Origin: Candidatus Omnitrophota bacterium
Lineage (GTDB): Bacteria; Omnitrophota; Gorgyraeia; Gygaellales; Profunditerraquicolaceae
Length of the DNA stretch: 50,356 nucleotides
Reading direction: 5' to 3'
Assembly (NCBI GenBank): GCA_020058085.1
Contig: JAGVER010000014.1
Location: 99,747-150,102 of the forward strand
A program made the translations under genes and the position numbers. This document shows positions 18,513 through 45,196 of this stretch, piece by piece; positions within the stretch are counted from its first letter, which is position 1, and every line of letters begins with the position of its first letter. The notes under the pieces are model-generated. The model ran no database searches and was not told where the DNA came from. It worked only from the letters and a program-made list of their open reading frames with translations.

Positions 18513-19244
18513 ATGTCGAAAGATAAGAAAATAGCTTTGGTTGTAGGAGGGAGCCGTGGGATTGGCAGGGCAATAGCTTTAAGCCTTGCTCGTTCAGGCT
18601 TTGATATCTGGCTAACTTATCAGAGCAATCATCAAGCCGCTGAGAATACAAAAAAAGAAATAGAGAAAAACGGCGCAGCCTGCCGTTTATTTGCTTTTGA
18701 TATCTCCGACTGTAAGGCTACCGAAGAGGCCTTGGGGAAAATAAGCGACGCAACTCCGCCGCACGTAGTTGTATATAATGCCGGTATCGCCAGGGATAAT
18801 TTGATGGTTTGGATGACTAAAGATGAGTGGGATAAGGTTATTGATACTAATTTAAATGGATTTTATAATATAATGCATGTTCTGCTTTTTGCGATACTAC
18901 GCGAAAAACGCGGCAGGATTGTGATTATTTCATCTACTTCAGGAGAGACCGGACAAGCAGGACAGGTTAATTATTCTGCTTCAAAGGCCGGGCTTATCGG
19001 CGCAGCTAAGGCGCTAGCTCGGGAAGTGGGTAAGAAAAATATATTAGTGAATGTAGTTGCTCCTGGGGTTATTGATACTGAGATGACCGCAGAATTACCA
19101 AAAGAAAAAATCCTTCCCCTTATCCCCTTAAATCGGTTCGGTCAACCGGAAGATGTGGCTTCTGTAGTAAATTTCTTGTGCACTCAGGAGAATATGTATA
19201 TTCACGGACAGGTAATCGGAGTTAATGGCGGCCTAAATATCTAG
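18513..19244 (+). CDS. fabG: 3-oxoacyl-ACP reductase (SDR)
   Basis: GGSRGIGRAIA cofactor motif, NAG, and the YSASKAG catalytic YxxxK. 243 aa. Confidence 0.88.
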   Translation: MSKDKKIALVVGGSRGIGRAIALSLARSGFDIWLTYQSNHQAAENTKKEIEKNGAACRLFAFDISDCKATEEALGKISDATPPHVVVYNAGIARDNLMVWMTKDEWDKVIDTNLNGFYNIMHVLLFAILREKRGRIVIISSTSGETGQAGQVNYSASKAGLIGAAKALAREVGKKNILVNVVAPGVIDTEMTAELPKEKILPLIPLNRFGQPEDVASVVNFLCTQENMYIHGQVIGVNGGLNI

Positions 19245-19256
19245 ATAACAAAATCC

Positions 19257-20759
19257 TTGATTAAAGAGTACGATCATATAGTTGTGGGTGGTGGAGTCAG
19301 CGGTTTAACCTTAGCATTACTCCTTGCGTTAAACGGACGAAAAATTCTCCTTCTTGAGAAAGGCAGGCATATTGGTGGGAGCCTTACTCGTTTTTATAAA
19401 GAAGGCGTGCCTTTCGATACGGGTTTTCACTTTACCGGTGGTTTCTCTCCTGGTGGAATTCTGGTAGATATGCTTCATGTCTTGGGGGTTGCCGACCGCA
19501 TCAAACCTATTTTTCTTTCTGGGCCGGGGTCAGGTGTTTTTGTCTTTGATCAGGACCAAGCAGTCTACGATATGCCCTCTGGAACGGAAAACTTCCGCAC
19601 CACTTTGCATAAATATTTCCCGGATGAATCAGTTGCGATCGATGAATATTTCACCCGGGTTAAAAAAGTATGGCAGGCAACGGTATCGCTTGAACTGCGT
19701 AACATTGCGCTTTCTGCTAAACCAATTGAGGAAGACTTCATTAGTCTTGAACAAGTTCTTGATTCTTTAACTACTAATTACAAGCTTAAAGGGCTTTTGT
19801 CTATTTTTTGCTTATGCTATGGGACTAATCCTAAGGAAGTATCGTTTGCAAACCATGCTCGCGTAGCCGGCGGGTTGTATGATTCAGTAGCGCGCATTGA
19901 GCACGGAGGCGAAGCGCTTATCCGGGCATTTCGCGACTGCTTTGTAAAAGTCAACATCGAGGTCCTCTGTAATACTACTATTGCCGAATGTTCTGATGTA
20001 AAAGATGATCGTGTGGGTAACTTTGTTCTGGATAACGGGGATAAAGTTTCGGCTAATGACTGTACCTTTACCATTCATCCCCAGGAAATTTTAAAAATAC
20101 TGCCCCGTCAACACTTGAAGAAGGCTTTTGTGGAGAGGGTTTCATCTTTTGAAACATCTAACGGGTTCTTCTCTGTATTTGGCGTAGTTGAAAATGCCGA
20201 TCCCTTAACCTTTGGGCCGAGCATCACATCACTTCTTCCTTCTTACGATTTAAATGTTCTTCTAGATCCTCTTTACGATGGCCCCGGTGCCCTAGCCGTT
20301 ATTCGTAGTGTTGAAAGAAACGGCGATAAAACGCATTGTGTGATTAATGCCTTTGAGCCGGAATTTTATGCGCGGGTTAAGCAATGGGCAGATTCTTCCG
20401 TGGGGAATAGGCCTCTTGCTTATTCTGAGTATAAGGCGCGTAAAGTTAAGGAAATCAAGGAGCGAATTTGTAATTTATATCCGCAGTGTCGTCAGGATTT
20501 AAAAATTCTTGATGCGGCCTCGGTATTAACCTTTCGGGATTATCTTTTTTCTCCCGAGGGGAATGCTTATGGAATAAAACAAAAAATCGGGCAATTTAAT
20601 CTTTTTGGTAGACAGTCGCTTTCGAATATTTATGTTGCCGGCCAGAGTGCGATTTTACCGGGGTTGGTAGGAGCAATGCTTTCCTCTTTTATTATTGCCA
20701 GGAGTCTTGTTGGAAAAGAAAAATATACTAGTTTTATAGAGCAAAGATTATGCAATTAA
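19257..20759 (+). CDS. FAD/NAD(P)-dependent oxidoreductase, phytoene-desaturase (CrtI)-like family
   Basis: N-terminal HIVVGGGVSGLTLALLLA..LLLEKGRHIGG dinucleotide-binding motif. About 500 aa. TTG start assumed. Confidence 0.7.
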   Translation: MIKEYDHIVVGGGVSGLTLALLLALNGRKILLLEKGRHIGGSLTRFYKEGVPFDTGFHFTGGFSPGGILVDMLHVLGVADRIKPIFLSGPGSGVFVFDQDQAVYDMPSGTENFRTTLHKYFPDESVAIDEYFTRVKKVWQATVSLELRNIALSAKPIEEDFISLEQVLDSLTTNYKLKGLLSIFCLCYGTNPKEVSFANHARVAGGLYDSVARIEHGGEALIRAFRDCFVKVNIEVLCNTTIAECSDVKDDRVGNFVLDNGDKVSANDCTFTIHPQEILKILPRQHLKKAFVERVSSFETSNGFFSVFGVVENADPLTFGPSITSLLPSYDLNVLLDPLYDGPGALAVIRSVERNGDKTHCVINAFEPEFYARVKQWADSSVGNRPLAYSEYKARKVKEIKERICNLYPQCRQDLKILDAASVLTFRDYLFSPEGNAYGIKQKIGQFNLFGRQSLSNIYVAGQSAILPGLVGAMLSSFIIARSLVGKEKYTSFIEQRLCN

Positions 20760-21982
20760 GAAGAGTTGTTATAACCGGACTAGGGGCAATTACTCCCTTG
20801 GGTAATGATGTCGCTACGTTAATTTCTGGGATCGAATCCGGGAAGAGCGCGGTTGAGCATATTCCGGAGTGGGAGAATTATATTGGGATGCGCTGTACGG
20901 TAGCAGCACCAGCCCATATTGAGAATGAAAAATTAATTCCTCGTCAAAATCGTCGTTCTATGGGGCGTTTAAGTATTTTTGCTGTGCAGGCAGCTGAACA
21001 AGCAATCAAGGATGCCGGAATTAAAAGTGGATCATTAACCGGTGGGAAGCTAGGTTGTGTTATGGGTTCGACTATGGGAAGCGCTGAGAGTATTGCCGAG
21101 GCTTTCGAAATCATGGGCACGGGAAAAGATTTGAGTAAGTTATCCGCAACTAAATTTTTTCAGTGTGTATCGCATACTGCGGCAATGAATGTTGCCCAGT
21201 ATCTAGGTATAACCGGGTATGTTTTAGCGACATCTGCTGCCTGTGCCTCAGCATTACAGGCAATAGGTACAGGTTTTGATTTAATTCGTCTGGGTAAGCA
21301 GGATATAATGCTATGCGGAGGGGCAGAGGGTTTGCATCCGACAGTAGTAGGTTCTTTTGATGTACTTTATGCCACATCATCAAATTATAATAAAGAGCCT
21401 AAAAAGACGCCACGGCCTTTTGATTCTAAGCGTGATGGATTAGTCTGCGGCGAGGGGAGCGGAGTATTGGTTCTAGAGGATTATGAAATGGCACGTAATC
21501 GTGGGGCCAAGATTTACGCTGAAATTATTGGGTATAACAGTTGCGGTAATGGCAGCCATGTAAGTGAATCAAATCATGAAGCCATAGTTTTCTGTATTCA
21601 AGAGGCGCTAAAGAGCGCGGGCATTACATTCAAAGATATAGATTATATAAATGCTCATGCTACCGCTACTATTCAAGGGGATAAAGAAGAGGCCAATGCT
21701 ATTCGTCATATTTTTGGCGATAGTGTTCCGGTAAGCAGCCTAAAGGGTTATATTGGGCATACCTTAGGTGCATCCGGGGCGATAGAGTTGATTGCCTCTT
21801 TAATAATGATGCAGAAAGGTAAAATTTACCCGACTCTGAATTTAGAAGATCCGGATAAAGAGTGTTCCGGGATACAGCACGTGATGAAGCCCGTAAATAA
21901 AAAAATAAATATACTTTTAAAAAACTGTTTTGCTTTTGGCGGAATTAACGCGGTGTTAATTTGTAAAAGCACCCGGCCTTAA
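20750..21982 (+). CDS. fabF: beta-ketoacyl-ACP synthase II-type ketosynthase
   Basis: Catalytic Cys (ATSAACASALQAIG) and His-His (NAHATAT, GHTLGASG). 410 aa. Confidence 0.88.
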   Translation: MQLRRVVITGLGAITPLGNDVATLISGIESGKSAVEHIPEWENYIGMRCTVAAPAHIENEKLIPRQNRRSMGRLSIFAVQAAEQAIKDAGIKSGSLTGGKLGCVMGSTMGSAESIAEAFEIMGTGKDLSKLSATKFFQCVSHTAAMNVAQYLGITGYVLATSAACASALQAIGTGFDLIRLGKQDIMLCGGAEGLHPTVVGSFDVLYATSSNYNKEPKKTPRPFDSKRDGLVCGEGSGVLVLEDYEMARNRGAKIYAEIIGYNSCGNGSHVSESNHEAIVFCIQEALKSAGITFKDIDYINAHATATIQGDKEEANAIRHIFGDSVPVSSLKGYIGHTLGASGAIELIASLIMMQKGKIYPTLNLEDPDKECSGIQHVMKPVNKKINILLKNCFAFGGINAVLICKSTRP

Positions 21983-22068: not shown

Positions 22069-22326
22069 ATGACTGAACAGGATGCTATAAGAATGACTAA
22101 TGAAGTATTTATTGATTCTTTTGAAATTCCAAAGGATAAGTTAGCCCCGCAGGCAAATATTTTTAATGACTTAGGGCTGGATAGCCTTGATATCGTAGAT
22201 TTAGTGGTGGCTTTACAGAAGAAATTCGGGATTATGATCAGAAGTGATGAACGCGTACGCAACATTCGCACTTTAGGTGATATTTATCAATTTATTTTAG
22301 TGATAAAAAAAGAGCTCGAGAAATAA
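22069..22326 (+). CDS. acyl carrier protein (ACP-1)
   Basis: 85 aa with the LGLDSLDIVDLV phosphopantetheine-attachment motif. Confidence 0.9.
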   Translation: MTEQDAIRMTNEVFIDSFEIPKDKLAPQANIFNDLGLDSLDIVDLVVALQKKFGIMIRSDERVRNIRTLGDIYQFILVIKKELEK

Positions 22327-23081
22327 TGCGGATTTTAAGAATCGTATATTTAAATATAAGTTTCTACGTTCTTACCACAACATTTTTATTAACTTGCTTG
22401 CCAGCTTTGGGTAGTTTGATGATCATCTTCGCCCTTATCTTGCCTAAACGAATGATGATGAGGCGTTTGCGCCGGGCAATTAGCTGGTTTGGCGCAGTGG
22501 TGATAAGAATTTTCCCTTGGCCGCTGGTGCGTTTAAGTTATAAAGACTTTTCCGGAAACGATACTCGCGGGCCGTATTTATTCGTTTGTAATCATCGTTC
22601 AGCTTCGGATCCTTTTTTAATGAGCGTGTTGCCTTATGAAGGTATCCAGGTAGTTAATATTTGGCCTTTTCGACTTCCGATTTTAGGAGTAATCGCTAAA
22701 AGTGCCGGGTATTTAAGTGTAAGGGAACTGCCTTTTGAAGCGTTCTTGGCTAAAACATCGAAATTACTCAAAGATGGAGTTTCTATAGCTGTATTTCCAG
22801 AAGGCACGCGTTCACGTGATAAACAAGTAGGGCAATTCCATAGCGCGATATTTCGCGTAGCTTTAGAGACAAAGATGCCTATTGTGCCCTTATGCATTAC
22901 AGGAAATGAGTTTATTCCTCCAGTCGGGTCGCCTTATTTAAGGCCGGGCTTAATTAAACTACATAGGCTTGAAGCGATAACTTGGGGAGAGTACCGAGGT
23001 TTTAGTCCGTTTAAACTTAAGAATTACGTGCGGGATATCATTATTAAGGAAGCCGCGTTAATGGACAAGAAAAATGTTTAA
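22326..23081 (+). CDS. lysophospholipid / 1-acyl-glycerol-3-phosphate acyltransferase-family protein
   Basis: N-terminal TM segments, NHRSASDP (HX4D) and VFPEGTRS motifs. Confidence 0.8.
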   Translation: MRILRIVYLNISFYVLTTTFLLTCLPALGSLMIIFALILPKRMMMRRLRRAISWFGAVVIRIFPWPLVRLSYKDFSGNDTRGPYLFVCNHRSASDPFLMSVLPYEGIQVVNIWPFRLPILGVIAKSAGYLSVRELPFEAFLAKTSKLLKDGVSIAVFPEGTRSRDKQVGQFHSAIFRVALETKMPIVPLCITGNEFIPPVGSPYLRPGLIKLHRLEAITWGEYRGFSPFKLKNYVRDIIIKEAALMDKKNV

Positions 23082-24363
23082 TTTAGATGCTTACGAAGAT
23101 TTAGAATTTGCTTCAGCGAAGAAGATAAGAAGCGTCCAGGAGAAACTATTACAGCAGCATCTTAATTATTGCATAAGCAATTCTAAATATTACCGTAGGC
23201 ATTTAAAAGGAGTAGATCTTAAGAAAATAAGTATTGATAATTTAACAAAACTACCTTTTACCGATAAATCTGATATTGAAGAATATAATAATGATTTTCT
23301 GGCAGTAAGTAAGAACAAAGTCGCGGATATAGTTTTATCATCCGGAACTACCGGAAAACCGACCAAGATTGCTTATACTGATTCGGATTTAAAACGGCTG
23401 GCATATAATGAGAAACAATCTTTTTCTTCTTGCGGTCTGACTTCTAAAGACACGGTTTTATTGACCTGTACCCTTGATCGTTGTTTTGTCGCGGGATTAG
23501 CTTATTTTTTAGGTATTCGTGCCTTGGGCGCCGCAGCTATTAGGAATGGCGTAAATAGCCTGGAGAGCCATTTTGAAATAATCAAACGTATGCGTCCCAG
23601 CGCAATTGTGGGCGTGCCAAGCTTTTTAAGAAAGTTGGGTTTGTATTTAAATGGACACGAGTTTATTGCTAACAAATCCGGAGTACGTAAATTAATTTGC
23701 ATCGGAGAGCCTCTGCGGGATAAAGATTTAAGGTTTTTAAAGCTCGGTGAAGATTTGGAGAAAATCTGGGAGGCCAAGGCACATTCTACTTATTCTTCCT
23801 CTGAGATAATCTCTACTTTTTGCGAGTGCTTTGCGCAAAGAGGCGGACACTTGCATCCTGATTTAGCTATAGTTGAAATTGTTGATGGGAAAGGCAATCC
23901 TCTTAGGGCTGGTGAATCCGGAGAACTGGTAGTTACACCTTTGCAGGTTGAAGGGATGCCTTTGGTGCGTTTTAAGACAGGAGATATAAGTTTTTTAATC
24001 AATCAACCCTGTGCTTGCGGCAGAAATTCTTTAAGGCTCGGTCCAATATTAGGCAGAAAAAAACAGATGATGAAAGTCTGCGGCACTACACTTTATCCGC
24101 AGGCAATTTTTTCTTGTTTAGAAGAGATAAAGGGAATAAACGAGTACTATGTTGTAGCTACTAGTAATGACAGGCTTTCCGACAGCATTGAGGTTTATGC
24201 GGCGGTAATTGACCGCTCGTGTACTGCGCGGGTAATTGAAAGTAAGCTTAATGCGCGTTTAAGAGTAAAACCAAAAGTATTTATTACTGATGAAGAATTA
24301 GTACGAGAGCGGGTTTATAGCCCTAGATCGCGTAAACCCGTGCGTTTTTTTGACAGGAGGTAA
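23074..24363 (+). CDS. adenylate-forming enzyme, phenylacetate-CoA ligase / F390 synthetase-like (PaaK family)
   Basis: SSGTTGKPTK P-loop-like motif. 429 aa, with the domain order of COG1541-type ligases. Candidate starter-unit activator. Confidence 0.7.
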   Translation: MFNLDAYEDLEFASAKKIRSVQEKLLQQHLNYCISNSKYYRRHLKGVDLKKISIDNLTKLPFTDKSDIEEYNNDFLAVSKNKVADIVLSSGTTGKPTKIAYTDSDLKRLAYNEKQSFSSCGLTSKDTVLLTCTLDRCFVAGLAYFLGIRALGAAAIRNGVNSLESHFEIIKRMRPSAIVGVPSFLRKLGLYLNGHEFIANKSGVRKLICIGEPLRDKDLRFLKLGEDLEKIWEAKAHSTYSSSEIISTFCECFAQRGGHLHPDLAIVEIVDGKGNPLRAGESGELVVTPLQVEGMPLVRFKTGDISFLINQPCACGRNSLRLGPILGRKKQMMKVCGTTLYPQAIFSCLEEIKGINEYYVVATSNDRLSDSIEVYAAVIDRSCTARVIESKLNARLRVKPKVFITDEELVRERVYSPRSRKPVRFFDRR

Positions 24364-39684: not shown

Positions 39685-39930
39685 ATGAAGCTAAAAGATA
39701 TAGAGGGAAAGCTCGGCCGGCAGCTTTCTATAATTCTAAGTATACCTGTCGTCGACCTTAAGCCCGAGATTCCCCTGCACGAATTAGGTGTTGATTCTTT
39801 AAGTTTTGTAGAGCTCCTGGTTTTTATTGAAAAGGAATTTAAGATAAAGCTTATGGAATCCGGAATTACCCGTGAAGATTTTAGGACGCTGCATTCTTTG
39901 GCAAGGTGCATTAATAAAATAACAGGATGA
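39685..39930 (+). CDS. acyl carrier protein (ACP-3)
   Basis: 81 aa with the LGVDSLSFVELLV motif. Confidence 0.85.
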   Translation: MKLKDIEGKLGRQLSIILSIPVVDLKPEIPLHELGVDSLSFVELLVFIEKEFKIKLMESGITREDFRTLHSLARCINKITG

Positions 39931-41198
39931 AGCGATATTTAACCGGAATTGATTGGATTATCCACGCTTTAGACTATAGTTCGCGCAAGAAAACCGGCAT
40001 AGGCAATACCTCGCAAGTTGTTTTAGAGTTAGACGGTTTTCTTAGCGAAGAAGTATTGAATGAACGTTTAAAGATAATCGCCTGTGAATTTCCGATCATT
40101 TTTGGTTATCCTTCCCGCGCCATTAATCTCTGCCCCTATTGGAAGAATAGCCATAAGCAAGGCGAGCTCCGTCTAAAGCTGCATCGTTTAAGTTCCGGTA
40201 GTGATTTTAACGATCTCATGAGAATCTTCTCAGAGGAACTAAACAAGCCTTTCTCGAACCAGAGGGAGCATCTTTTATTCAACCTTATATATCAGGGTAA
40301 ACGAAGCTTCTTAGGCATGATTTTTGATCACCGTTTGATGGAGGCTAGAGGGGCTGAAGCTTTTTTAGGTCTTTTAGGAGGCGGGCGCGGGCTTTCTTTA
40401 GGAGGCTCGCTTTATGAACCTAGCCATTTAAATAATTGGCTGGATAAATTTCGTGCCGGCCGTGAGGTGAATCGCGTTTTCTTAAATTTAACCGAAGGCA
40501 GGCCTAGGGCTTTAGAGCCGGTCCCTGATGGTGTTGGATCAGAATTTAAAATCATCAATTTTAATCAAGAAAGAAGTTCTAATATTACTCAAGATGCCCT
40601 TAGCCAAGCAGGTTATCTTATGTTCATGCCTTATATCCTAAGTAAAAGCATTATGATCTTACACCAAATATTCGAAGAGAGAAAAATCCTTCCCCAAGAT
40701 TATCTTATTCCAGTATCTATTGACACCAGGCCTAATGATCTTGTTAGAAAGGAGATATTATTTAACCATCTCTCTTTCTTTCTTTTTAGAATTACCGTGC
40801 AGGAGGCAGATAGTTTTCAATTGATCTTAAGTTCTGTTAAAGAACAGATGTATAATCAAATCAAGGTTCGTTTACCGCAGGCGATTAAGGAGGCAAGTTT
40901 CTTAATGCGCATAGCGCCTTTACCCCTTATTAATTCCATTCTTAAAATTATGAGTAAGGGAAATACTGCGTCATTTTCTTTTGCTTTTGTCGGAGAGGGC
41001 GCGTATGTTTCAAATAGTTTTATGCAAATTCCCGTAAAGAATATATTCCATTTGCCGCGTGTTCCTTTGCCACCGGGTTTAGGTATATTCTTTAATCAAT
41101 ATCAGGGGAATCTCAATGCAGTTTTCTCTTATGCCCATGGGTTATTAAGCGAAGATGAGATAGCAAGAGTAAGTTTAGGGATAAATTCTTTAGCATGA
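39927..41198 (+). CDS. condensation-domain-like acyltransferase (divergent HHxxxDG-type motif)
   Basis: 423 aa. FDHRLMEARGAEAFL aligns with the HHxxxDG motif of the C-domain / WS-DGAT / PapA5 superfamily, with Glu-Ala in place of Asp-Gly. It directly follows an ACP. There is no other support. Confidence 0.35.
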   Translation: MKRYLTGIDWIIHALDYSSRKKTGIGNTSQVVLELDGFLSEEVLNERLKIIACEFPIIFGYPSRAINLCPYWKNSHKQGELRLKLHRLSSGSDFNDLMRIFSEELNKPFSNQREHLLFNLIYQGKRSFLGMIFDHRLMEARGAEAFLGLLGGGRGLSLGGSLYEPSHLNNWLDKFRAGREVNRVFLNLTEGRPRALEPVPDGVGSEFKIINFNQERSSNITQDALSQAGYLMFMPYILSKSIMILHQIFEERKILPQDYLIPVSIDTRPNDLVRKEILFNHLSFFLFRITVQEADSFQLILSSVKEQMYNQIKVRLPQAIKEASFLMRIAPLPLINSILKIMSKGNTASFSFAFVGEGAYVSNSFMQIPVKNIFHLPRVPLPPGLGIFFNQYQGNLNAVFSYAHGLLSEDEIARVSLGINSLA

Positions 41199-42349
41199 GA
41201 TATAAGCGCATGAATTGCGATATATTGGTAGTTGGCGCAGGGGCCTCTGGTGTTGCTGCGGCAGTTGCTGCTGCTAAAAGAGGTGCTTCGGTTATTTTAC
41301 TGGAGCAAAATAAATTCCCCGGGGGTACAGCAATTATTGCTATGCATAATTTTATCTGTGGGGTAAGCCGCGATAGAAAAGGTTTATTAAGAGAAATTTT
41401 GAACAAAATTGCCCCGGGAGAACGACTGATAAAAAAAGGCAGGGTTTTTCTTTTGCCTTTTAAGAGAGAGCGGATGGTTTTAGGTTTAACCCAGATTATT
41501 AAGAACGAGAAGAAAGTCAGAGTTTTTTATAACAACAAAGTGGTATCGCTTCGGAGATTTAAGAACCGGGTAGTTTCAGTTATCAGCAAAAATGCTCGCG
41601 GCAGAATGTTGATTAACCCTAAGGTTGTGATCGATGCTTCAGGAAAAGGAGTTCTTATTAAATTAAGCGGAGCAAAATATAAGATATCCGCGTTAAGTAA
41701 AAAACAGCTTTCCGGTTTTAGTTTTATGGTCAAGAATATAAAAGGTAATAATGGAGCATTGGCTTGGAAGGTCCCCTATTCTTTAACTCAAGGTGCCCGG
41801 GCTGGAGAATTACCCAAATATTTTAAATTTAGTCTTTTCTCTTCGGGCTATTCTCAAGGCGAAGGATTTATTAGATTAAATATCCCTCCCCTAAAACAAG
41901 GGGGCAATAGTAAAATTACAAACAAGAAAGCTATCTTTATTCATAATTATCTGCGTAGGTCATTAGCTGAATTTAAGCATTCTTATATTAAGCAAGTATC
42001 TCCCTATCTTAGCGATCGCGAAGGTATAAGGCTTTTAGGGGAATATATTTTAAGAAAGAAAGACGTATTAGGCCAAAAGAAATTCCCGGATGTTGTGGCT
42101 TACGGGTATTGGCCAATTGAGTTTTGGCATAGAAAAAACGGCCCTTGTTTTACATATCTTAAAAAAGATGGTTTCTATGAAATACCCCTACGTTCTCTCA
42201 AGTCAAAAAACATAGATAATCTTTTTGCTACAGGCAGATGCATTTCGGCTGATCCCTATGCTTTGGCCTCAACACGGGTTTTGGGGACCTGTATTTCTTT
42301 AGGGGAGGCAGCAGGTATTGCCGCGAGTAAATTATGCGCATACTTTTAG
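41195..42349 (+). CDS. FAD-dependent oxidoreductase
   Basis: ILVVGAGASGVAAAVAAAKRGASVILLEQ..PGGT dinucleotide-binding motif. 384 aa. Confidence 0.7.
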   Translation: MRYKRMNCDILVVGAGASGVAAAVAAAKRGASVILLEQNKFPGGTAIIAMHNFICGVSRDRKGLLREILNKIAPGERLIKKGRVFLLPFKRERMVLGLTQIIKNEKKVRVFYNNKVVSLRRFKNRVVSVISKNARGRMLINPKVVIDASGKGVLIKLSGAKYKISALSKKQLSGFSFMVKNIKGNNGALAWKVPYSLTQGARAGELPKYFKFSLFSSGYSQGEGFIRLNIPPLKQGGNSKITNKKAIFIHNYLRRSLAEFKHSYIKQVSPYLSDREGIRLLGEYILRKKDVLGQKKFPDVVAYGYWPIEFWHRKNGPCFTYLKKDGFYEIPLRSLKSKNIDNLFATGRCISADPYALASTRVLGTCISLGEAAGIAASKLCAYF

Positions 42350-43770
42350 TTAAGCCATATCCAGAACTCTTAGTCGCCCGAAGATTGCAGGAAGGGTTTT
42401 TGCATCTTGAGCCATTAGAGCTTGAGATTGTAGCCGGCGGAGCCCCTTTAACCGAAGAAGTAAGAATTTTAGATTTAAGTTTAGAGGGGAATAGGCCTTG
42501 GGAAGTCTTTGATAAGACAATTAAGGATTGGTATCCGGATTTAGTAGGTTTTAGCGGTTATAGCACGAATGTCAATTTAGTCAAGAAACTGGCTCTTTTT
42601 GTCAAAAGCATTAATCCTAAGATTATAACTATGGTTGGCGGGATACACGCTACGTTGCTTCCGCAAGATTATGATATACCTGAAATTGATCTTATTGTGC
42701 GCGGAGAAGGTGGGTCGGTTTTACGCAAAATATTGGAACGGATTAGAGATAAAGAGCCGTTTTTCTTTGATAATGTTGTGCTTTCGCCTAAAGACCTGGA
42801 GTTTTCTAGTAAAGCACAATTATCTCCTCCTCCATATCCGGATCCGAGCGAAATACCAATGCCGCGCAGAGATTTAGTCAAGCGTGATCGCTACTTCTGT
42901 ATTTGGACTTCTAGTGATACCGGAAGGTTGAATAAATTATTTCCTCAAGTTGCCAGTATGCGCACATCAGTGGGCTGCGCGTTCTCTTGTTCTTTCTGTG
43001 TTATCCCGCACCTTATGCGTGGGAAGTATTTACAGTGGCAGCCGGAACGAGTAATTGATGAAATAGCCGCATTAAAAGAAAAATATGTATATTTTTTAGA
43101 CGACGAGATGTTTTTAAATATCGAACGTGTTAAAAAGATCGCCGAGCTCTTACTTAAACGCGGTATAAAGAAGAAATATATAAGTTGGGCTCGGAGTGAT
43201 ACGATCGTAAAGCATGCACATATTTTTAAGCTCTGGAAAGAAGCAGGGCTGGATACGCTTTATGTTGGATTAGAGTCTATGGATGAAGCAAAGCTCAATG
43301 AATATAAAAAGCGGCTTCCCGTTGAAACTAATCGTAAGGCAATCGGTATTTTACGCGAATTAGGGATTACTCTGCATGCTGCTTTTATCGTCCATCCGGA
43401 ATTTAGCGCCGATGATTTCCAAAGTTTAGAAAAAGAGGTTTTAGCCCTTTGCCCGGCAGAGGTAACTTTTACGGTTTTATCTCCTTCTCCGGGAACGCCA
43501 TTTTGGCATGAGAACAAAAATAGGTTTATCTGTGACCCGTATCGTTTCTATGACTGCATGCATACAATTTTGCCTACGCGCTTGCCTTTAAGGCGCTTCT
43601 ATCAGCATTTTAGTCGGTTGACCAATCTGGCTTTGCGCGCCAATCCTCTACGCGTGAATAAAATTAAGGTTCCTTTTAAAGACTTTATCAGGGCAATCAT
43701 TGCCGGGACAAAATATATTATTGCTTTACAATTGATATACCGAGATTATGTTTTTAAAAAAAATGAATAA
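42334..43770 (+). CDS. cobalamin-binding-domain radical SAM protein
   Basis: MRILLVKP... N-terminal B12-type domain and a TSVGCAFSCSFCVI CxxxCxxC cluster. 478 aa. Confidence 0.8.
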   Translation: MRILLVKPYPELLVARRLQEGFLHLEPLELEIVAGGAPLTEEVRILDLSLEGNRPWEVFDKTIKDWYPDLVGFSGYSTNVNLVKKLALFVKSINPKIITMVGGIHATLLPQDYDIPEIDLIVRGEGGSVLRKILERIRDKEPFFFDNVVLSPKDLEFSSKAQLSPPPYPDPSEIPMPRRDLVKRDRYFCIWTSSDTGRLNKLFPQVASMRTSVGCAFSCSFCVIPHLMRGKYLQWQPERVIDEIAALKEKYVYFLDDEMFLNIERVKKIAELLLKRGIKKKYISWARSDTIVKHAHIFKLWKEAGLDTLYVGLESMDEAKLNEYKKRLPVETNRKAIGILRELGITLHAAFIVHPEFSADDFQSLEKEVLALCPAEVTFTVLSPSPGTPFWHENKNRFICDPYRFYDCMHTILPTRLPLRRFYQHFSRLTNLALRANPLRVNKIKVPFKDFIRAIIAGTKYIIALQLIYRDYVFKKNE

Positions 43771-45196
43771 TATTGTCGATACGATAGTTGATGAAACAAA
43801 GGGCTATCTGAAGAAGATTGCTGTTATTGATGGAGAGAGTAAGGTTTCTTATGCAGAGTTGCTTGAAGCGGTTAAAGATTCAAGCGAGGAATTAAAAAAG
43901 CGGGGCGTCTTAAAATTTCAGCGTGTGGCCTTATTATCCGAAGACGGTATTGACTATATTGTCGCTAGCCTTGCAGTATTAAAACTACACTCTGTTATTG
44001 TCCCTATTCCCATTGGATCGTCTTTGGAGGAGATTGAGAGTGTACTCTCTAATCTTAAGGTAAACTTTATTATCTTTGAGAAAGATTGTTATACCAAGAA
44101 AGGAGCTCTTCGGATATTCAAGAAGAGTGCGTTCAAAAAAGAGTTTTCAATTTTTCAGCTTAATCCCAAAAAAGGTTTGCCCCAAGATTTTTTTAAGATC
44201 AATCCGGCCTTTATACGTTTTTCATCAGGGACAACCGGGGAGAGTAAGGGAGTAGTGCTTTCGCACGAAACAATTATTGCCCGGACTTCTGCCGCAAATA
44301 AGGGTTTAAAAGTTACCTCCAAGGACCAGATTATCTGGGTGCTCTCAATGAGTTTCCATTTTGTGGTAACCATACTTTTATTCTTACGCCGCGCCGCAAC
44401 GATTATTATTTCCAGCCGTCAATTCCCTTATGAATTGTTAGATAACCTTAGGAAATATAAGCCTACCTTTATTTATGCTTCACCGGTACACTATCATATA
44501 CTCTCTAGTTTAAATCTCCCGAAGAAGTCGTTTTCGCGCCTTCGTTTAGTAGTTTCCACCGCAGTAAAATTAGCGCCTAATATCGCGGATAGATTCTACC
44601 GGGAGTTTAATTTAGAATTAGCTGAAGCCTATGGAATTATTGAAGTGGGTTTGCCATTCATTAATCTTTCGAAACGTAAATCTAAGCGTGGTTCAGTCGG
44701 CAAGATCATTTCGGACTATAATCTCAAAATAGCAGATAAAGATAAAGAAGGGATCGGTAAGATCTATATTAAGGGAAAGGGTATTTTTGACGCTTATTTT
44801 TCACCATGGCGTAATAGAAAAGATATCCTCACTAAAGGTTGGTTTAATACCGGTGATCTAGGAAAGTTAGATAAAGACGGTTTCTTGTATATTGTGGGTA
44901 GAGAGAAAAACATGATTAATTTTAGCGGGATGAAGGTATTTCCCTTTGAAGTAGAGAGTATTTTGAACCAGCACCCTTTGGTTCAGGAGTCTTATGTTTA
45001 TGGGGTAGCTCATCCTGAATATGGGCAGGTTCCTCTGGCCAAAGTTATTTTAAGAGCAGGGGAGAAGAGGGCGCGCAGCCTTAAAGTATTACGCAGGTTT
45101 TGTTACAAGACTCTGGCTTCTTATAAAGTTCCTAAAGAATTTGAATTTGTAGATAAACTTCCCAAGACTGCCAGCGGAAAAACAAAATATTTTTAA
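43748..45196 (+). CDS. ANL-family AMP-dependent synthetase/ligase (acyl-CoA or acyl-ACP ligase)
   Basis: Contains FSSGTTGESKGV, GWFNTGDLG..DGFLYIVGR and PKTASGK motifs. The start is 43748 or 43763. Confidence 0.85.
   Translation: MFLKKMNNIVDTIVDETKGYLKKIAVIDGESKVSYAELLEAVKDSSEELKKRGVLKFQRVALLSEDGIDYIVASLAVLKLHSVIVPIPIGSSLEEIESVLSNLKVNFIIFEKDCYTKKGALRIFKKSAFKKEFSIFQLNPKKGLPQDFFKINPAFIRFSSGTTGESKGVVLSHETIIARTSAANKGLKVTSKDQIIWVLSMSFHFVVTILLFLRRAATIIISSRQFPYELLDNLRKYKPTFIYASPVHYHILSSLNLPKKSFSRLRLVVSTAVKLAPNIADRFYREFNLELAEAYGIIEVGLPFINLSKRKSKRGSVGKIISDYNLKIADKDKEGIGKIYIKGKGIFDAYFSPWRNRKDILTKGWFNTGDLGKLDKDGFLYIVGREKNMINFSGMKVFPFEVESILNQHPLVQESYVYGVAHPEYGQVPLAKVILRAGEKRARSLKVLRRFCYKTLASYKVPKEFEFVDKLPKTASGKTKYF

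What the first reader, a model, noticed from the sequence alone, without database searches (positions are those of the whole stretch)
18513..45196. 27-gene, ~27-kb co-directional lipid/polyketide operon: aryl-polyene-like core and export genes plus a set of cobalamin radical SAM enzymes
Seen directly. From fabG (18513) to the ANL ligase (ends 45196), every gene is on the + strand, with overlaps or gaps of at most 135 nt. The run ends at a perfect 14-bp hairpin. Content: 3 Cys-His-His ketosynthases, 2 short KS-like partners, 3 ACPs, FabG, a FabZ-like hotdog, a 4HBT thioesterase, a PaaK-like and an ANL adenylating enzyme, PlsC-like and LpxL-like acyltransferases, GT2-DUF2062, LolA-like + MMPL + lipoprotein, 2 FAD oxidoreductases, and a condensation-like protein. 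It also has 3 B12-domain radical SAM proteins (32089, 33345, 42334) and a radical SAM/SPASM::hotdog fusion (24369). A fourth B12-rSAM sits just upstream at 16151. Established knowledge: the block ACP / LPLAT / adenylating enzyme / hotdog / GT / thioesterase / LolA / MMPL / DUF3261 / KS + CLF / KR is the hallmark of aryl-polyene (APE) and flexirubin-type clusters. Multiple B12-rSAMs next to FabF/ACP/FabZ and a phytoene-desaturase-like gene is the set proposed (but not proven) for ladderane biosynthesis in anammox bacteria. Inference: I see no enoyl-ACP reductase motif set, no ammonia-lyase or chorismate-lyase for an aryl starter, and no SAM methyltransferase. The product is therefore probably not a classical APE. 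A polyene or fatty-acyl envelope lipid remodelled by radical chemistry (C-methylation, cyclisation or C-C cross-linking) and exported by LolA/MMPL fits better.
Basis: partly seen in the sequence, partly recalled or inferred. Interest (0 to 1): 0.85.

Follow-up and report, generated by a model that had tools for sequence, protein, structure and literature searches.

The report
Aryl-polyene-like lipid operon with radical SAM enzymes
This is a real 27-gene operon for an aryl-polyene-like outer-membrane lipid with built-in radical SAM enzymes, but it is one ordinary member of a gene-cluster family spread through hundreds of anaerobic species and noted since 2009, whose product is still unknown.

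Summary
There are 27 co-directional genes from 18513 to 45196, with gaps of at most 135 nt, ending at a perfect 14-bp hairpin. Every domain call was confirmed.

The core is an aryl-polyene (APE)/flexirubin-type system. Eleven of 18 E. coli CFT073 Ape proteins have BLAST homologues here. The ApeP half of the split dehydratase is fused to a radical SAM/SPASM enzyme.

Gene 33327 is a scoring member of NCBIfam TIGR04072 ("rSAM_ladder_B12"). Gene 32089 is the most conserved protein, yet its best structural match is AprD4, which binds no cobalamin. The B12-type genes at 42334 and 16151 are accessory.

The cluster is not unique. At least 474 species-representative genomes carry the fusion gene (Omnitrophota, Nitrospirota, Desulfobacterota, Planctomycetota, Geobacter, Pelobacter). 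In 77 of 80 fetched loci the genes are colinear with the window.

Rattray et al. (2009) described this synteny between Kuenenia and Desulfotalea/Geobacter/Pelobacter. antiSMASH "ladderane" clusters have been reported in Omnitrophota. No paper I found assigns a product.

The host is probably Omnitrophota, not an anammox bacterium. The most likely product is a radically tailored polyene-type acyl lipid, anchored and exported to the outer membrane.

Verdict: new member of a known but uncharacterised kind; moderate interest.

The parts
16151..17584 (+). B12-binding radical SAM 'a' (HpnJ/BchE-like). Accessory gene, detached upstream of the operon.
   Evidence: Pfam B12-binding + Radical_SAM. Best NCBIfam match is HpnJ, 181 bits, below cut-off. 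CxxxCxxC at residue 212. It is 65% identical (608 bits) to a B12-rSAM that lies inside the cluster in L081. Absent from the other loci.
17773..18453 (+). HTH protein, a possible local regulator. Membership of the cluster is uncertain.
   Evidence: Only weak HTH_23 Pfam hits. No NCBIfam hit. No homologue next to any related cluster.
18513..19244 (+). 3-ketoacyl-ACP reductase (ApeQ/FlxB/FabG type).
   Evidence: adh_short_C2 at 180 bits. Passes NCBIfam FabG model NF004200 (288 > 273). Best match FlxB at 300 bits, below its 340 cut-off. 43% identical to E. coli ApeQ, reciprocal best hit.
19257..20759 (+). Phytoene-desaturase/amine-oxidase-like flavoprotein.
   Evidence: NAD_binding_8 and Amino_oxidase. 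Weak CrtD/CrtI-family hits, far below cut-offs. Conserved at this position in 53 loci, mean 55% identity. No counterpart in the E. coli ape cluster.
20750..21982 (+). Ketosynthase KS1, ApeR type (FabB-like homodimeric KS).
   Evidence: Cys-His-His present. 43% identical to E. coli ApeR. Its two best PDB matches are 7F27 (A. baumannii ApeR) and 4EWG (a Paraburkholderia ApeR homologue), at 367 and 331 bits.
22069..22326 (+). Acyl carrier protein 1.
   Evidence: PP-binding with GLDSL serine. 36% identical to an E. coli ape carrier protein.
22326..23081 (+). PlsC-type lysophospholipid acyltransferase (ApeD-like).
   Evidence: PF01553. 30% identical to E. coli ApeD.
23074..24363 (+). PaaK/FlxY-type adenylating ligase, the putative starter-acid loader.
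   Evidence: AMP-binding + AMP-binding_C_2. Best NCBIfam match is the flexirubin ligase FlxY, 470 bits against a cut-off of 520. No BLAST similarity to E. coli ApeH.
24369..25850 (+). Radical SAM-SPASM enzyme fused to an ApeP-like hotdog (half of the split dehydratase).
   Evidence: Radical_SAM + SPASM. CxxxCxxC at residue 38 plus Cys-rich SPASM motifs. The C-terminal part (residues 362-488) is 28% identical to E. coli ApeP and matches PDB 6qsr_B and PF22817 weakly. The E..MAQ glutamate (E408) is invariant. More than 2000 homologues have the same architecture.
25804..26484 (+). LolA-like carrier (ApeL-like). The start of the ORF looks like a lipoprotein signal.
   Evidence: PF03548. Best NCBIfam match LolA2_flexi, 92 bits against a cut-off of 125. 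N-terminal ...SLGC motif.
26486..28864 (+). MMPL/RND-type exporter (ApeM-like).
   Evidence: MMPL and SecD_SecF_C. HAE3/HpnN-like hits. 22% identical to E. coli ApeM, reciprocal best hit.
28871..29533 (+). DUF3261 lipoprotein (ApeN-like).
   Evidence: PF11659. N-terminal signal with Cys. Same position as DUF3261 in the E. coli ape cluster.
29536..29916 (+). ApeI-like hotdog dehydratase half, which carries the catalytic His.
   Evidence: Weak ApeI-like/FabA Pfam hits. The GHFP motif aligns with E. coli ApeI. 27% identical to ApeI.
29933..30418 (+). 4HBT-type thioesterase (ApeK-like).
   Evidence: 4HBT_2/4HBT. 34% identical to E. coli ApeK.
30406..31539 (+). Ketosynthase KS2.
   Evidence: Cys-His-His present. 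35% identical to ApeO over the C-terminal two thirds. Best PDB match 9s5h_B.
31532..32092 (+). Short chain-length-factor-like partner CLF2 (186 aa, no catalytic triad).
   Evidence: Weak ketoacyl-synt hit. No Cys/His motifs. Conserved after KS2 in 40 loci.
32089..33345 (+). Radical SAM 'b' with a Rossmann-type N-domain (AprD4-like). The most conserved protein of the cluster; cobalamin use not established.
   Evidence: Both Pfam domains below gathering score. CxxxCxxC at residue 173. Mean 74.6% identity across phyla. More than 6000 homologues, 73-93% identical among the top 120. AF2 pLDDT 88.9. Best Foldseek hit is AprD4 6fd2, E 5e-17, TMq 0.78. AprD4 binds no cobalamin (PMC12931638).
33327..34712 (+). 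B12-binding radical SAM 'c', a member of TIGR04072 (rSAM_ladder_B12).
   Evidence: 629 bits against a cut-off of 360. Pfam B12-binding at 74 bits + Radical_SAM. Best PDB match is TsrM 6wte, 116 bits.
34678..35892 (+). GT2 glycosyltransferase fused to the DUF2062 membrane domain (like the ApeJ N-half).
   Evidence: Pfam. 34% identical to the N-terminal half of E. coli ApeJ.
35885..36790 (+). LpxL-type acyltransferase (like the ApeJ C-half).
   Evidence: PF03279. 24% identical to residues 258-550 of E. coli ApeJ.
36926..37204 (+). Acyl carrier protein 2.
   Evidence: PP-binding. Passes NF006617 (77.6 > 70). 35% identical to the E. coli ape phosphopantetheine-binding protein.
37208..38374 (+). 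Ketosynthase KS3 (reciprocal best hit of ApeO).
   Evidence: NACSSG Cys plus two His motifs. 32% identical to ApeO over the full length.
38377..39024 (+). Short chain-length-factor-like partner CLF3 (215 aa).
   Evidence: ketoacyl-synt and Ketoacyl-synt_2. No triad. Orthologues are 212 aa in the closest relative and 340-359 aa elsewhere.
39061..39669 (+). Secreted or lipoprotein-like protein of 202 aa with no family. Accessory.
   Evidence: No Pfam or NCBIfam hit. Signal peptide. Orthologues only in L081, L084 and L042.
39685..39930 (+). Acyl carrier protein 3.
   Evidence: PP-binding and ACP_SdgA_C. GVDSL serine.
39927..41198 (+). Stand-alone condensation/CAT-superfamily acyltransferase.
   Evidence: No Pfam or NCBIfam hit. 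AF2 pLDDT 90.2, pTM 0.91. Foldseek E about 1e-20 and TMq up to 0.71 to NRPS C/Cy/E domains and TRI3. D134-H135 of a DHRxx[D/E]A motif are invariant. 139 representatives of 50%-identity clusters at E <= 1e-30.
41195..42349 (+). FAD-dependent oxidoreductase (PF12831).
   Evidence: 234 bits. Conserved after the condensation-like gene in L081-L085.
42334..43770 (+). B12-binding radical SAM 'd' (HpnR-like). Accessory.
   Evidence: Pfam. Best NCBIfam match HpnR, 233 bits against a cut-off of 650. Orthologues 71-89% identical in L081, L083, L084 and L085; absent in Desulfosarcina BuS5.
43748..45196 (+). ANL-family acyl-CoA/ACP ligase (FadD/MenE-like). Last gene of the cluster.
   Evidence: AMP-binding + AMP-binding_C. 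All NCBIfam matches below cut-off. It is the last cluster gene in L081, L084 and L085, followed there by unrelated genes; in L083 a contig-end ORF sits at this position but was not annotated.
45217..45251 (.). Perfect 14-bp inverted repeat (7-nt loop) between the convergent ends of the operon and the - strand gene.
   Evidence: No T-run on the + strand.
45273..45287 (+). Canonical terminator-like stem-loop with a T-rich tail.

Best explanation
The window carries one complete copy of a widely conserved biosynthetic operon, running from the FabG-type reductase to the ANL ligase, plus a detached accessory B12-type radical SAM gene at 16151. It is an aryl-polyene/flexirubin-type type II PKS/FAS system with radical SAM enzymes built into it.

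Shown by homology, motifs and synteny:
- A PaaK/FlxY-type ligase and carrier proteins.
- An ApeR-type ketosynthase and two ketosynthase/short-chain-length-factor pairs.
- One ketoreductase.
- A split dehydratase. The His-bearing half is the ApeI-like protein. The Glu-bearing ApeP-like half is the C-terminus of a radical SAM-SPASM enzyme.
- A thioesterase.
- PlsC-type and LpxL-type acyltransferases and a GT2-DUF2062 enzyme.
- A LolA/MMPL/DUF3261 export set.
- No recognisable enoyl reductase.

Inferred mechanism:
1. A carboxylic-acid starter is adenylated and loaded on ACP1.
2. It is extended with malonyl units, keto-reduced and dehydrated without enoyl reduction, giving a conjugated or otherwise unsaturated chain.
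3. The radical SAM domain tethered to the dehydratase acts on the ACP-bound beta-hydroxy or enoyl intermediate. The two core radical SAM enzymes (the AprD4-like 32089 and the TIGR04072 member 33327) and the accessory HpnR-like and HpnJ-like ones carry out radical tailoring: C-methylation, dehydration/rearrangement or C-C bond formation.
4. A second module (ACP2/KS3/CLF3, ACP3, ANL ligase, flavoproteins) builds or modifies a second acyl part.
5. The stand-alone condensation-type enzyme joins that part by an ester or amide bond.
6. The product is attached to a (glyco)lipid anchor and exported to the outer membrane.

The chemical identity of the product is unknown.
For: - Gene content and motifs.
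- Direct comparison with the E. coli CFT073 ape cluster: 11 of 18 Ape proteins have BLAST homologues, mostly reciprocal best hits. Three more (LolA, DUF3261, chain-length factor) share Pfam families or annotation.
- KS1's best solved relatives are two ApeR proteins.
- Split active site: GHFP in 29536, and E..MAQ with invariant E408 in the hotdog of 24369.
- The fusion architecture is kept in more than 2000 homologues.
- Gene order FabG..GT2 is colinear in 77 of 80 genome loci from at least 8 phylum-level labels.
- The distal half (GT2..ANL) is conserved in L081-L085, including cultured Desulfosarcina sp. BuS5.
- 33327 scores 629 bits on TIGR04072, cut-off 360.
- 32089 is the most conserved protein, mean 74.6% identity.
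- The four B12-type proteins are four separate orthogroups, only 20-26% identical to each other.
- The orthologue of 16151 lies inside the cluster in L081.
- 39927 has a condensation-domain fold with a conserved catalytic His.
- Flanking genes are not conserved near related clusters, which sets the boundaries.
- Literature: the same kind of synteny was described for Kuenenia, Desulfotalea, Geobacter and Pelobacter (PMC2649909).
Against: - There are no chemical or expression data for this or any related cluster. Heterologous expression of the Kuenenia homologues gave no new fatty acids (PMC4790861).
- The starter acid is unknown. The ligase is below the FlxY cut-off and unrelated to E. coli ApeH.
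- The two flavoproteins could act as enoyl reductases, in which case the chain would not be a polyene.
- Cobalamin dependence is untested for all of them and doubtful for 32089.
- The roles given to the second KS/CLF/ACP set, the ANL ligase and the condensation-type enzyme rest on inference from gene content only.
- A single transcription unit is inferred from overlaps, not shown.
Confidence: 0.6

Rival explanations
1. It makes an ordinary aryl-polyene pigment. The radical SAM enzymes only replace oxygen-independent decorating steps, for example methylating the aryl head in place of the missing ApeB methyltransferase, so the product is a classical APE with minor decoration.
For: The full APE core is present. 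ApeB has no homologue here. 33327's best solved relative is TsrM, an sp2 C-methyltransferase. 42334 is closest to the hopanoid C-3 methylase HpnR. The ligase is closest to the flexirubin ligase FlxY.
Against: - Beyond methylases there is much extra conserved machinery: a second KS/CLF pair, a third ACP, a condensation-type enzyme, two flavoproteins and a second ligase.
- The most conserved enzyme (32089) resembles a non-methylating dehydratase.
- The radical SAM-SPASM domain is fused to the dehydratase itself, which points to chemistry on the growing chain rather than on the head group.
Confidence: 0.2
2. It is an anaerobic route to polyunsaturated fatty acids or hydrocarbons, as Rattray et al. 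(2009) proposed for the homologous Kuenenia and Desulfotalea clusters. Desaturase-like flavoproteins and radical SAM enzymes would insert double bonds into FAS II products.
For: Two desaturase-like flavoproteins and several radical SAM enzymes sit beside FAS-like genes. D. psychrophila, which carries such clusters, makes C31:8/C31:9 hydrocarbons (PMC2649909).
Against: - The link was circumstantial, as the paper's own reviewers noted.
- The KS/KR/split-dehydratase set without an enoyl reductase already yields unsaturation in the APE manner.
- The anchor and export genes (LPLAT, GT2, LolA, MMPL, DUF3261) fit an outer-membrane-bound product, not free hydrocarbons.
- From my own knowledge, not checked here: such polyunsaturated hydrocarbons are attributed to Pfa/Ole pathways.
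Confidence: 0.1
3. It is a ladderane (cyclobutane lipid) pathway outside the anammox bacteria.
For: It contains a member of TIGR04072 'rSAM_ladder_B12', a phytoene-desaturase-like gene, KS/CLF pairs and ACPs, as in the sets proposed for ladderanes. antiSMASH labels 'ladderane' clusters in Omnitrophota and other phyla (PMC9902471).
Against: - Ladderanes are known only from anammox bacteria, and none were found in D. psychrophila, which has the syntenic cluster (PMC2649909).
- The cluster occurs in at least 474 species of many phyla.
- The cluster now favoured for ladderanes (Cluster I, kuste3603-3608) is anammox-specific and differently built. It has amxFabZ and a full-length mutated FabF partner, whereas the partners here are 186 and 215 aa.
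- The closest relatives of three cluster proteins are in Omnitrophota MAGs.
Confidence: 0.03
4. The run is a chance juxtaposition of an APE cluster with unrelated radical SAM and lipid genes, not one functional unit.
For: The 135-nt and 86-nt gaps could hold internal promoters. The accessory genes (16151, 42334, 39061) vary between genomes.
Against: The same order and strand are kept across phyla in 77 of 80 loci, and from FabG to ANL in full-length loci. One radical SAM is fused in frame to ApeP. Most genes overlap or abut.
Confidence: 0.03

Closest known systems
Aryl-polyene (APE) gene cluster of E. coli CFT073 (apeA-S) and the A. baumannii/Xenorhabdus Ape enzymes
   Same: Homologues of ApeR, ApeQ, ApeO, ApeP, ApeI, ApeK, ApeJ (both halves), ApeD, ApeM and both carrier proteins (22-43% identity). 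The LolA, DUF3261 and chain-length-factor families are shared. The dehydratase has the same split His/Glu active site. No enoyl reductase.
   Different: - ApeP is fused to a radical SAM-SPASM enzyme.
- Up to four extra B12-type radical SAM genes, two flavoproteins, a second KS/CLF pair, a third ACP, a condensation-type enzyme and a second (ANL) ligase.
- No homologue of ApeB (methyltransferase), ApeA, ApeG or the ApeH ligase.
- ApeJ is split into two genes with a DUF2062 domain.
Flexirubin-type clusters (NCBIfam Flx models)
   Same: The best NCBIfam matches of three proteins are flexirubin models: FlxY ligase (470 bits), FlxB reductase (300 bits) and LolA2 (92 bits). A two-part product joined by an ester, as in flexirubin, would fit the second module and the condensation-type enzyme (inference).
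   Different: All three scores are below the curated cut-offs (520, 340, 125). No tyrosine ammonia-lyase or dialkylresorcinol genes were found. The radical SAM complement is not part of the described flexirubin clusters (my knowledge of those clusters, not checked here).
The FAS II-like/radical SAM clusters shared by Kuenenia stuttgartiensis (kuste3335-3352), Desulfotalea psychrophila, Geobacter and Pelobacter (Rattray et al. 2009); NCBIfam TIGR04072
   Same: The same inventory as described there: several radical SAM enzymes, phytoene-dehydrogenase-like flavoproteins, a phenylacetyl-CoA-ligase/F390-synthetase-like ligase, a glycosyltransferase, an MMPL-like membrane protein and several FabF paralogues. 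33327 is a scoring TIGR04072 member. Geobacter and Pelobacter MAG loci (L053, L076) are colinear with the window.
   Different: The host is a different phylum (probably Omnitrophota). The Kuenenia list includes two SAM methylases and a polysaccharide-deacetylase-like gene that are absent here. I could not compare sequences with the anammox or Desulfotalea genes directly.
Anammox 'Cluster I' (kuste3603-3608: amxACP, amxFabZ, PDH, B12-rSAM, amxFabF2/amxFabFmut)
   Same: It combines a dedicated ACP, a KS with a non-catalytic partner, a phytoene-desaturase-like flavoprotein and a B12-type radical SAM enzyme.
   Different: It is six genes and anammox-specific. The partner is a full-length FabF with a mutated triad, not a 186-215 aa protein. 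It has no APE export or anchor genes and no radical SAM-hotdog fusion.
Jawsamycin Jaw5 / iterative PKS (a radical SAM enzyme acting on enoyl intermediates during chain growth)
   Same: This is a mechanistic analogy only: a radical SAM enzyme coupled to an iterative ketosynthase/dehydratase cycle. It is cited as the only other proposed radical SAM modification of ketoacyl lipids (PMC13459092).
   Different: Jaw5 belongs to a different radical SAM class (HemN-like, from my own knowledge) and is not fused to a dehydratase. No sequence relationship was tested.
AprD4 (radical SAM 1,2-diol dehydratase, PDB 6FD2)
   Same: It is the best structural match of 32089 (E 5e-17, TMq 0.78). It has a Rossmann-type N-domain and a radical SAM barrel.
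   Different: Only 17% identity. AprD4 acts on an aminoglycoside and binds no cobalamin. Whether 32089 binds cobalamin, and what its substrate is, are unknown.

Membership tests
Aryl-polyene / flexirubin-type biosynthetic cluster | ApeR-type stand-alone ketosynthase plus a KS/chain-length-factor pair | tested here: met
   KS1 is 43% identical to E. coli ApeR, and its best PDB hits are 7F27 and 4EWG, both ApeR. KS3 and KS2 are 32-35% identical to ApeO. Their short partners lack the triad.
Aryl-polyene / flexirubin-type biosynthetic cluster | Ketoreductase plus a heteromeric ApeI:ApeP dehydratase, and no enoyl reductase | tested here: met
   ApeQ homologue at 43% identity. ApeI-like protein with GHFP. 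ApeP-like domain with E..MAQ. No FabI/K/L/V-type hit. Variation: ApeP is fused to a radical SAM enzyme.
Aryl-polyene / flexirubin-type biosynthetic cluster | Dedicated starter-loading adenylating enzyme for an aryl acid | tested here: inconclusive
   23074 is closest to the flexirubin ligase FlxY (470 bits), below the 520 cut-off, and has no BLAST similarity to E. coli ApeH. Substrate unknown.
Aryl-polyene / flexirubin-type biosynthetic cluster | Anchor and export set: LPLAT-type acyltransferases, GT2, thioesterase, LolA-like, MMPL, DUF3261 | tested here: met
   Pfam. BLAST to ApeD, ApeJ, ApeK and ApeM. LolA and DUF3261 are matched by family only.
Aryl-polyene / flexirubin-type biosynthetic cluster | Aryl-head tailoring methyltransferase (ApeB) or aryl-starter supply gene (ammonia-lyase) | tested here: not met
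   No homologue of ApeB. No methyltransferase or lyase domain in any of the 27 proteins. The E. coli cluster itself has no annotated starter-supply gene, so this feature is not universal.
Aryl-polyene / flexirubin-type biosynthetic cluster | Product is an aryl-polyene pigment bound to the outer membrane | not testable with these tools
   Needs chemistry.
TIGR04072-containing FAS II-like/radical SAM lipid cluster (Rattray 2009 type; the antiSMASH 'ladderane' label) | A B12-binding radical SAM protein that scores above the TIGR04072 cut-off | tested here: met
   33327-34712 scores 629 bits against a cut-off of 360.
TIGR04072-containing FAS II-like/radical SAM lipid cluster (Rattray 2009 type; the antiSMASH 'ladderane' label) | Co-clustered phytoene-dehydrogenase-like flavoprotein, PaaK/F390-synthetase-like ligase, glycosyltransferase, MMPL-like membrane protein, further radical SAM enzymes and several FabF paralogues | tested here: met
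   compared with the inventory in PMC2649909.
TIGR04072-containing FAS II-like/radical SAM lipid cluster (Rattray 2009 type; the antiSMASH 'ladderane' label) | Synteny with the clusters of Geobacter/Pelobacter and other Desulfobacterota | tested here: met
   L053 (Geobacter MAG), L076 (Pelobacter MAG), several Desulfobacteraceae MAGs and Desulfosarcina BuS5 are colinear with the window.
TIGR04072-containing FAS II-like/radical SAM lipid cluster (Rattray 2009 type; the antiSMASH 'ladderane' label) | Orthology with Kuenenia kuste3335-3352 and D. psychrophila genes | not tested
Anammox ladderane Cluster I | Host is an anammox bacterium (Brocadiia) that makes ladderanes | tested here: not met
   The closest homologues of three cluster proteins are in Candidatus Omnitrophota MAGs. 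The cluster occurs in many non-anammox phyla.
Anammox ladderane Cluster I | amxFabF2 paired with a full-length FabF that has a mutated triad; amxFabZ; amxACP | tested here: not met
   The partners here are 186 and 215 aa, not full-length FabF proteins. The dehydratase is the ApeI/ApeP type. For the Cluster I description see bioRxiv 10.64898/2026.05.19.726425.
Cobalamin-dependent (class B) radical SAM enzymes | N-terminal B12-binding domain plus a CxxxCxxC radical SAM core above family thresholds | tested here: met
   16151, 33327 and 42334: both Pfam domains are above the gathering scores and CxxxCxxC is present.
Cobalamin-dependent (class B) radical SAM enzymes | The same feature, for 32089-33345 | tested here: inconclusive
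   B12-binding scores 31.5 against 32.1, and Radical_SAM 27.2 against 29.5. CxxxCxxC is present. The best structural match is AprD4, which does not bind cobalamin.
Condensation/CAT-superfamily acyltransferases | Two-lobed CAT-like fold with a catalytic His in an HHxxxDG-type motif | tested here: met
   39927: pLDDT 90.2. Foldseek E about 1e-20 to NRPS C/Cy/E domains and TRI3. DHRxx[D/E]A motif with invariant D134-H135. The profile search against PDB sequences was not significant.

The most novel reading that the evidence does not exclude
This conserved FabG-to-ANL operon, present in hundreds of anaerobic diderm species, makes a class of envelope lipid that has not yet been described. In this reading, an APE-type unsaturated acyl chain is remodelled on the carrier protein by radical chemistry. 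A dehydratase-tethered radical SAM-SPASM enzyme and an AprD4-like radical enzyme would form rings, cross-links or rearranged or branched chains. A stand-alone condensation enzyme would then join this chain to a second acyl part. It would be only the third case of radical SAM modification of ketoacyl-derived lipids, and would show what the 'ladderane-type' clusters outside the anammox bacteria really do.
Probability: 0.4. Interest if true: 0.75.

Novelty: new member of a known kind. Interest (0 to 1): 0.45.

Why it matters
The family this operon belongs to is one of the most widespread biosynthetic clusters of strictly anaerobic, mostly uncultured bacteria. It is routinely labelled 'ladderane' or 'aryl polyene' by genome-mining tools, and it has no known product.

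Three points would shape any experiment:
- It is an aryl-polyene-type system.
- A radical enzyme is welded to the dehydratase.
- The best-conserved enzyme resembles a cobalamin-free radical dehydratase.

These features tell experimenters which proteins to reconstitute first. They also argue that the homologous Kuenenia cluster is not the ladderane-specific one.

Culturable carriers (Geobacter, Pelobacter, Desulfotalea, Desulfosarcina BuS5) make the question testable. The window itself adds one more well-preserved Omnitrophota-like example rather than a new kind of system.

Tried and rejected
- Source contig: looking up the contig of the window's own condensation-like protein found nothing on record.
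- Anammox origin: the GC content of about 40% first suggested Kuenenia. I rejected this because the nearest homologues are in Omnitrophota MAGs. Host identity is still only inferred from cluster proteins; no housekeeping gene was compared.
- Direct comparison with Kuenenia or Desulfotalea proteins was not possible. The one genome-collection scan returned only the best 80 of 474 loci, none from those organisms.
- A sequence-profile search of the condensation-like family against PDB gave only insignificant hits to E2 acyltransferases. The fold search settled the question.
- Cluster-member look-up of ten distant condensation-like representatives gave no organism names.
- Literature searches for an assigned product found only genome-mining reports and the 2009/2016 anammox papers. 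The searches used ladderane/radical SAM/aryl polyene/DUF3261/TIGR04072 terms and Geobacter and Desulfotalea locus tags.
- The origin of PDB entry 9s5h (best match of KS2 and KS3) could not be established, so nothing is built on it.
- Promoter-like sites upstream of the operon occur at chance frequency.
- Downstream genes (PMT_2, GT2, an unknown protein and a second amine-oxidase-like gene at 48820) were considered as cluster members. I rejected them because no homologues lie near any related cluster.

Full report
**1. Observation**

The ORF table shows 27 + strand ORFs from 18513 to 45196. Computed spacings run from -47 to +135 nt. The 14-bp perfect inverted repeat lies at 45217-45230 / 45238-45251 with a 7-nt loop. 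It sits between the convergent ends of the operon and a - strand gene, and no T-run follows it on the + strand. A canonical terminator-like stem with a T-rich tail follows at 45273-45287. GC content is uniform at about 0.37-0.43 across the window.

**2. What the genes are**

- The three ketosynthases have the Cys-His-His triad. The two short partners (186 and 215 aa) lack it.
- The three carrier proteins have the DSL serine.
- All five radical SAM proteins have CxxxCxxC.
- The protein at 39927 has no Pfam or NCBIfam hit. It gave a confident model (pLDDT 90.2, pTM 0.91). That model matches NRPS condensation, heterocyclisation and epimerisation domains and the TRI3 acetyltransferase at E about 1e-20. 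A DHRxx[D/E]A motif with invariant Asp134-His135 takes the place of HHxxxDG.
- The only ORF left without a family is 39061-39669, a 202-aa protein with a signal peptide.

Upstream of the cluster lie pyrimidine-synthesis genes, fpg and a V/A-type ATPase operon. Downstream lie glycosyltransferases on the opposite strand.

**3. Test against a real APE cluster**

I fetched the E. coli CFT073 ape cluster (L087) and compared proteins by BLASTP.

Reciprocal best hits:
- ApeR and KS1, 43% identity.
- ApeQ and the reductase, 43%.
- ApeO and KS3, 32% over the full length (KS2 is 35% over part).
- ApeP and residues 362-488 of the radical SAM-SPASM protein, 28%.
- ApeI and 29536, 27%.
- ApeK and the 4HBT thioesterase, 34%.
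- ApeD and the PlsC-type enzyme, 30%.
- ApeM and the MMPL protein, 22%.
- Both carrier proteins, 35-36%.
- ApeJ matches two window genes: its N-half matches GT2-DUF2062 (34%) and its C-half the LpxL-type enzyme (24%).

LolA, DUF3261 and the chain-length factor are shared at family level only. ApeH, ApeG, ApeB and ApeA have no counterpart.

KS1's two best solved relatives are 7F27 and 4EWG, which are ApeR proteins (PMC8358021).

The dehydratase active site is split as in ApeI:ApeP. The GHFP histidine is in 29536. The E..MAQ glutamate (E408, invariant in 14 homologues) is in the hotdog domain of 24369.

Three proteins have flexirubin models as their best NCBIfam match (FlxY, FlxB, LolA2), all below cut-off. 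The core is therefore APE/flexirubin-like, with clear departures.

**4. The radical SAM complement**

- **24369** is a radical SAM-SPASM enzyme fused to the ApeP-like half of the dehydratase. The same architecture is found in more than 2000 homologues.
- **33327** is a scoring member of TIGR04072, 'rSAM_ladder_B12, lipid biosynthesis B12-binding/radical SAM protein' (629 bits, cut-off 360). Its best solved relative is TsrM.
- **32089** scores just below both Pfam thresholds, yet it is the most conserved protein of the cluster. Mean identity is 74.6% across phyla, and the top 120 of more than 6000 homologues are 73-93% identical. Its model (pLDDT 88.9) matches AprD4 best (E 5e-17, TMq 0.78). 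AprD4 has a Rossmann-like domain but does not bind cobalamin (PMC12931638), so calling 32089 B12-dependent is premature.
- **42334** is HpnR-like and **16151** is HpnJ-like, both far below those models' cut-offs.

The four B12-type proteins are only 20-26% identical to each other. They are four separate orthogroups, not recent duplicates.

The orthologue of 16151 (65% identity, 608 bits) lies inside the cluster in L081, between the FAD oxidoreductase and the HpnR-like gene. The upstream gene therefore belongs to the system. 42334 is absent in Desulfosarcina BuS5. The core radical set is thus 24369, 32089 and 33327; 42334 and 16151 are accessory.

**5. Distribution and synteny**

A scan of one genome per species, using an alignment of the fusion protein, found 474 genomes with a relative. 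This is a lower bound, because only two peptide patterns were used.

The best 80 carry these labels: Omnitrophota, Nitrospirota/Thermodesulfovibrionales, Desulfobacterota/Deltaproteobacteria, Planctomycetota, Verrucomicrobiota/Kiritimatiellia/Lentisphaerae, Ratteibacteria, Syntrophales, Geobacter and Pelobacter.

- tblastn of the window proteins shows the order FabG-PDH-KS1-ACP1-PlsC-ligase-rSAM::ApeP-LolA-MMPL-DUF3261-ApeI-4HBT-KS2-CLF2-rSAM b-rSAM c-GT2 in essentially all loci long enough to show it.
- 77 of 80 loci are colinear and on the same strand.
- The distal half (GT2, LpxL-type, ACP, KS, CLF, ACP, condensation-type, FAD oxidoreductase, B12-rSAM, ANL ligase) is conserved in contigs from Omnitrophota-like, Hydrogenedentes and other sources, and in cultured Desulfosarcina sp. 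BuS5.
- The ANL ligase is the last cluster gene in L081, L084 and L085, and is followed there by unrelated genes.
- None of the window's flanking genes (the HTH gene at 17773, DUF1622, the PEGA-like gene, the - strand glycosyltransferases, the amine-oxidase-like gene at 48820) has a homologue near any related cluster. This sets the boundaries.
- The nearest homologues of three cluster proteins are in Candidatus Omnitrophota MAGs. The host is probably of that phylum and not an anammox bacterium.

**6. What is already known**

- Rattray et al. 2009 (PMC2649909) described FAS II-like clusters with radical SAM enzymes, phytoene-dehydrogenase-like genes, a phenylacetyl-CoA-ligase/F390-synthetase-like gene, a glycosyltransferase and an MMPL-like membrane protein in Kuenenia. 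They noted 'striking' synteny with Desulfotalea psychrophila and similar clusters in Geobacter and Pelobacter. No ladderanes were found in D. psychrophila.
- Expression of the Kuenenia genes in E. coli gave no new fatty acids (PMC4790861).
- Current work on ladderanes centres on the anammox-specific Cluster I, kuste3603-3608 (bioRxiv 10.64898/2026.05.19.726425).
- antiSMASH 'ladderane' clusters have been reported, expressed but unexplained, in Omnitrophota, Desulfobacterota and other phyla (PMC9902471).
- I found no paper that assigns a product.
- Three of the ladderane papers I term-searched do not use 'aryl polyene' or 'polyene'.

**7. Most likely mechanism**

Shown by homology, motifs and synteny: an APE-type iterative system is present and conserved as one unit. 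It comprises a ligase, carrier proteins, an ApeR-type KS, KS/CLF pairs, one ketoreductase, a split dehydratase, a thioesterase, anchor acyltransferases and a glycosyltransferase, and a LolA/MMPL/DUF3261 export set. It has no recognisable enoyl reductase.

Inferred:
1. A carboxylic-acid starter is loaded and extended to an unsaturated chain.
2. The radical SAM domain, tethered to the dehydratase, acts on the carrier-bound beta-hydroxy or enoyl intermediate.
3. 32089 (AprD4-like) and 33327 (TsrM-like, TIGR04072) carry out the core radical tailoring.
4. The HpnR-like and HpnJ-like enzymes add lineage-specific changes, probably C-methylation or ring chemistry.
5. The second KS/CLF/ACP set, the ANL ligase and the flavoproteins build or adjust a second acyl part.
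6. The condensation-type enzyme joins that part.
7. The product is anchored and exported to the outer membrane.

I put 0.6 on this general picture and much less on any single step.

**8. Rivals**

- A classical APE with radical SAM methylation only: 0.2.
- The PUFA/hydrocarbon route of Rattray et al.: 0.1.
- True ladderane synthesis: 0.03.
- A chance juxtaposition: 0.03.

The evidence for and against each is given in the Rival explanations section.

**9. Verdict**

Two arguments are weak:
- Absence of an aryl-starter gene says little, since the E. coli cluster has none annotated either.
- The 'ladderane set' it recalled is the cluster type shared with non-ladderane bacteria.

The main correction concerns rarity. 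This is an ordinary, well-preserved member of a very widespread cluster family that has been in the literature since 2009 and has a curated NCBIfam model, although its product is unknown. I rate it a new member of a known kind, with interest 0.45.

The points that may be useful to specialists:
- The explicit APE mapping.
- The dehydratase-radical SAM fusion with a split active site.
- The core versus accessory radical SAM sets.
- The AprD4-like nature of the best-conserved enzyme.
- The stand-alone condensation-fold enzyme.

Noticed in passing
window 32089-33345: This radical SAM protein is far more conserved (68-87% identity across phyla, mean 74.6%) than any other cluster protein, including the reductase and the ACPs. 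Yet it scores below both Pfam thresholds, and structurally it resembles the cobalamin-free dehydratase AprD4.
   Followed up: partly
window 38377-39024; L081, L082, L084, L085: The second chain-length-factor-like protein is 215 aa here and 212 aa in the closest relative (L083). It is 340-359 aa in L081, L082, L084 and L085. The family therefore exists in a short and a long form. No frameshifted remnant is evident, since only 36 nt separate it from the next gene.
   Followed up: partly
window 39061-39669: A 202-aa signal-peptide protein without any family match. Its distribution is patchy: orthologues are found in L081, L084 and L042, but none in L082, L083 or L085.
   Followed up: partly
L087 (E. 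coli CFT073) 8212-9888 versus window 34678-36790: E. coli ApeJ (558 aa) is a fusion of a GT2 domain and an LpxL-type acyltransferase-like domain. In the window these are two genes, and the GT2 carries a DUF2062 membrane domain instead.
   Followed up: no
window 7018-14096: A V/A-type ATPase operon: an unknown protein, a DUF2764 protein, and subunits A, B, D, I-like and c. It lies on the same strand, directly upstream of the region.
   Followed up: no
window 47-7034: Housekeeping block: carB (its N-terminus possibly cut by the window edge), fpg, a PEMT/ICMT-like membrane methyltransferase (3956-4675), pyrK, pyrD and pyrF.
   Followed up: no
window 45249-50151: Convergent - strand genes: a PMT_2-type glycosyltransferase, a GT2 and an unknown 349-aa protein. 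A further amine-oxidase/phytoene-desaturase-like flavoprotein lies on the + strand at 48820-50151. None has a homologue near related clusters.
   Followed up: yes
L082 (Desulfosarcina sp. BuS5) 2976-5840: Three opposite-strand genes (AAA_14/DUF4143 ATPase, a small ORF and an HTH protein) are inserted in the middle of the cluster, between the DUF3261-position gene and the ApeI-like gene. This looks like a mobile or defence-type insertion.
   Followed up: no
window 30406-31539 and 37208-39024: The KS/short-partner pairs and ACP3 give sub-threshold NCBIfam matches to the cispentacin enzymes AmcF, AmcG and AmcB. That is a type II PKS-like system with a short partner that builds a five-membered ring.
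   Followed up: no
window 15275-16008: A DUF1622 membrane protein and a weak PEGA-domain ORF lie between the ATPase operon and the upstream B12-radical SAM gene. Neither is conserved near related clusters.
   Followed up: partly
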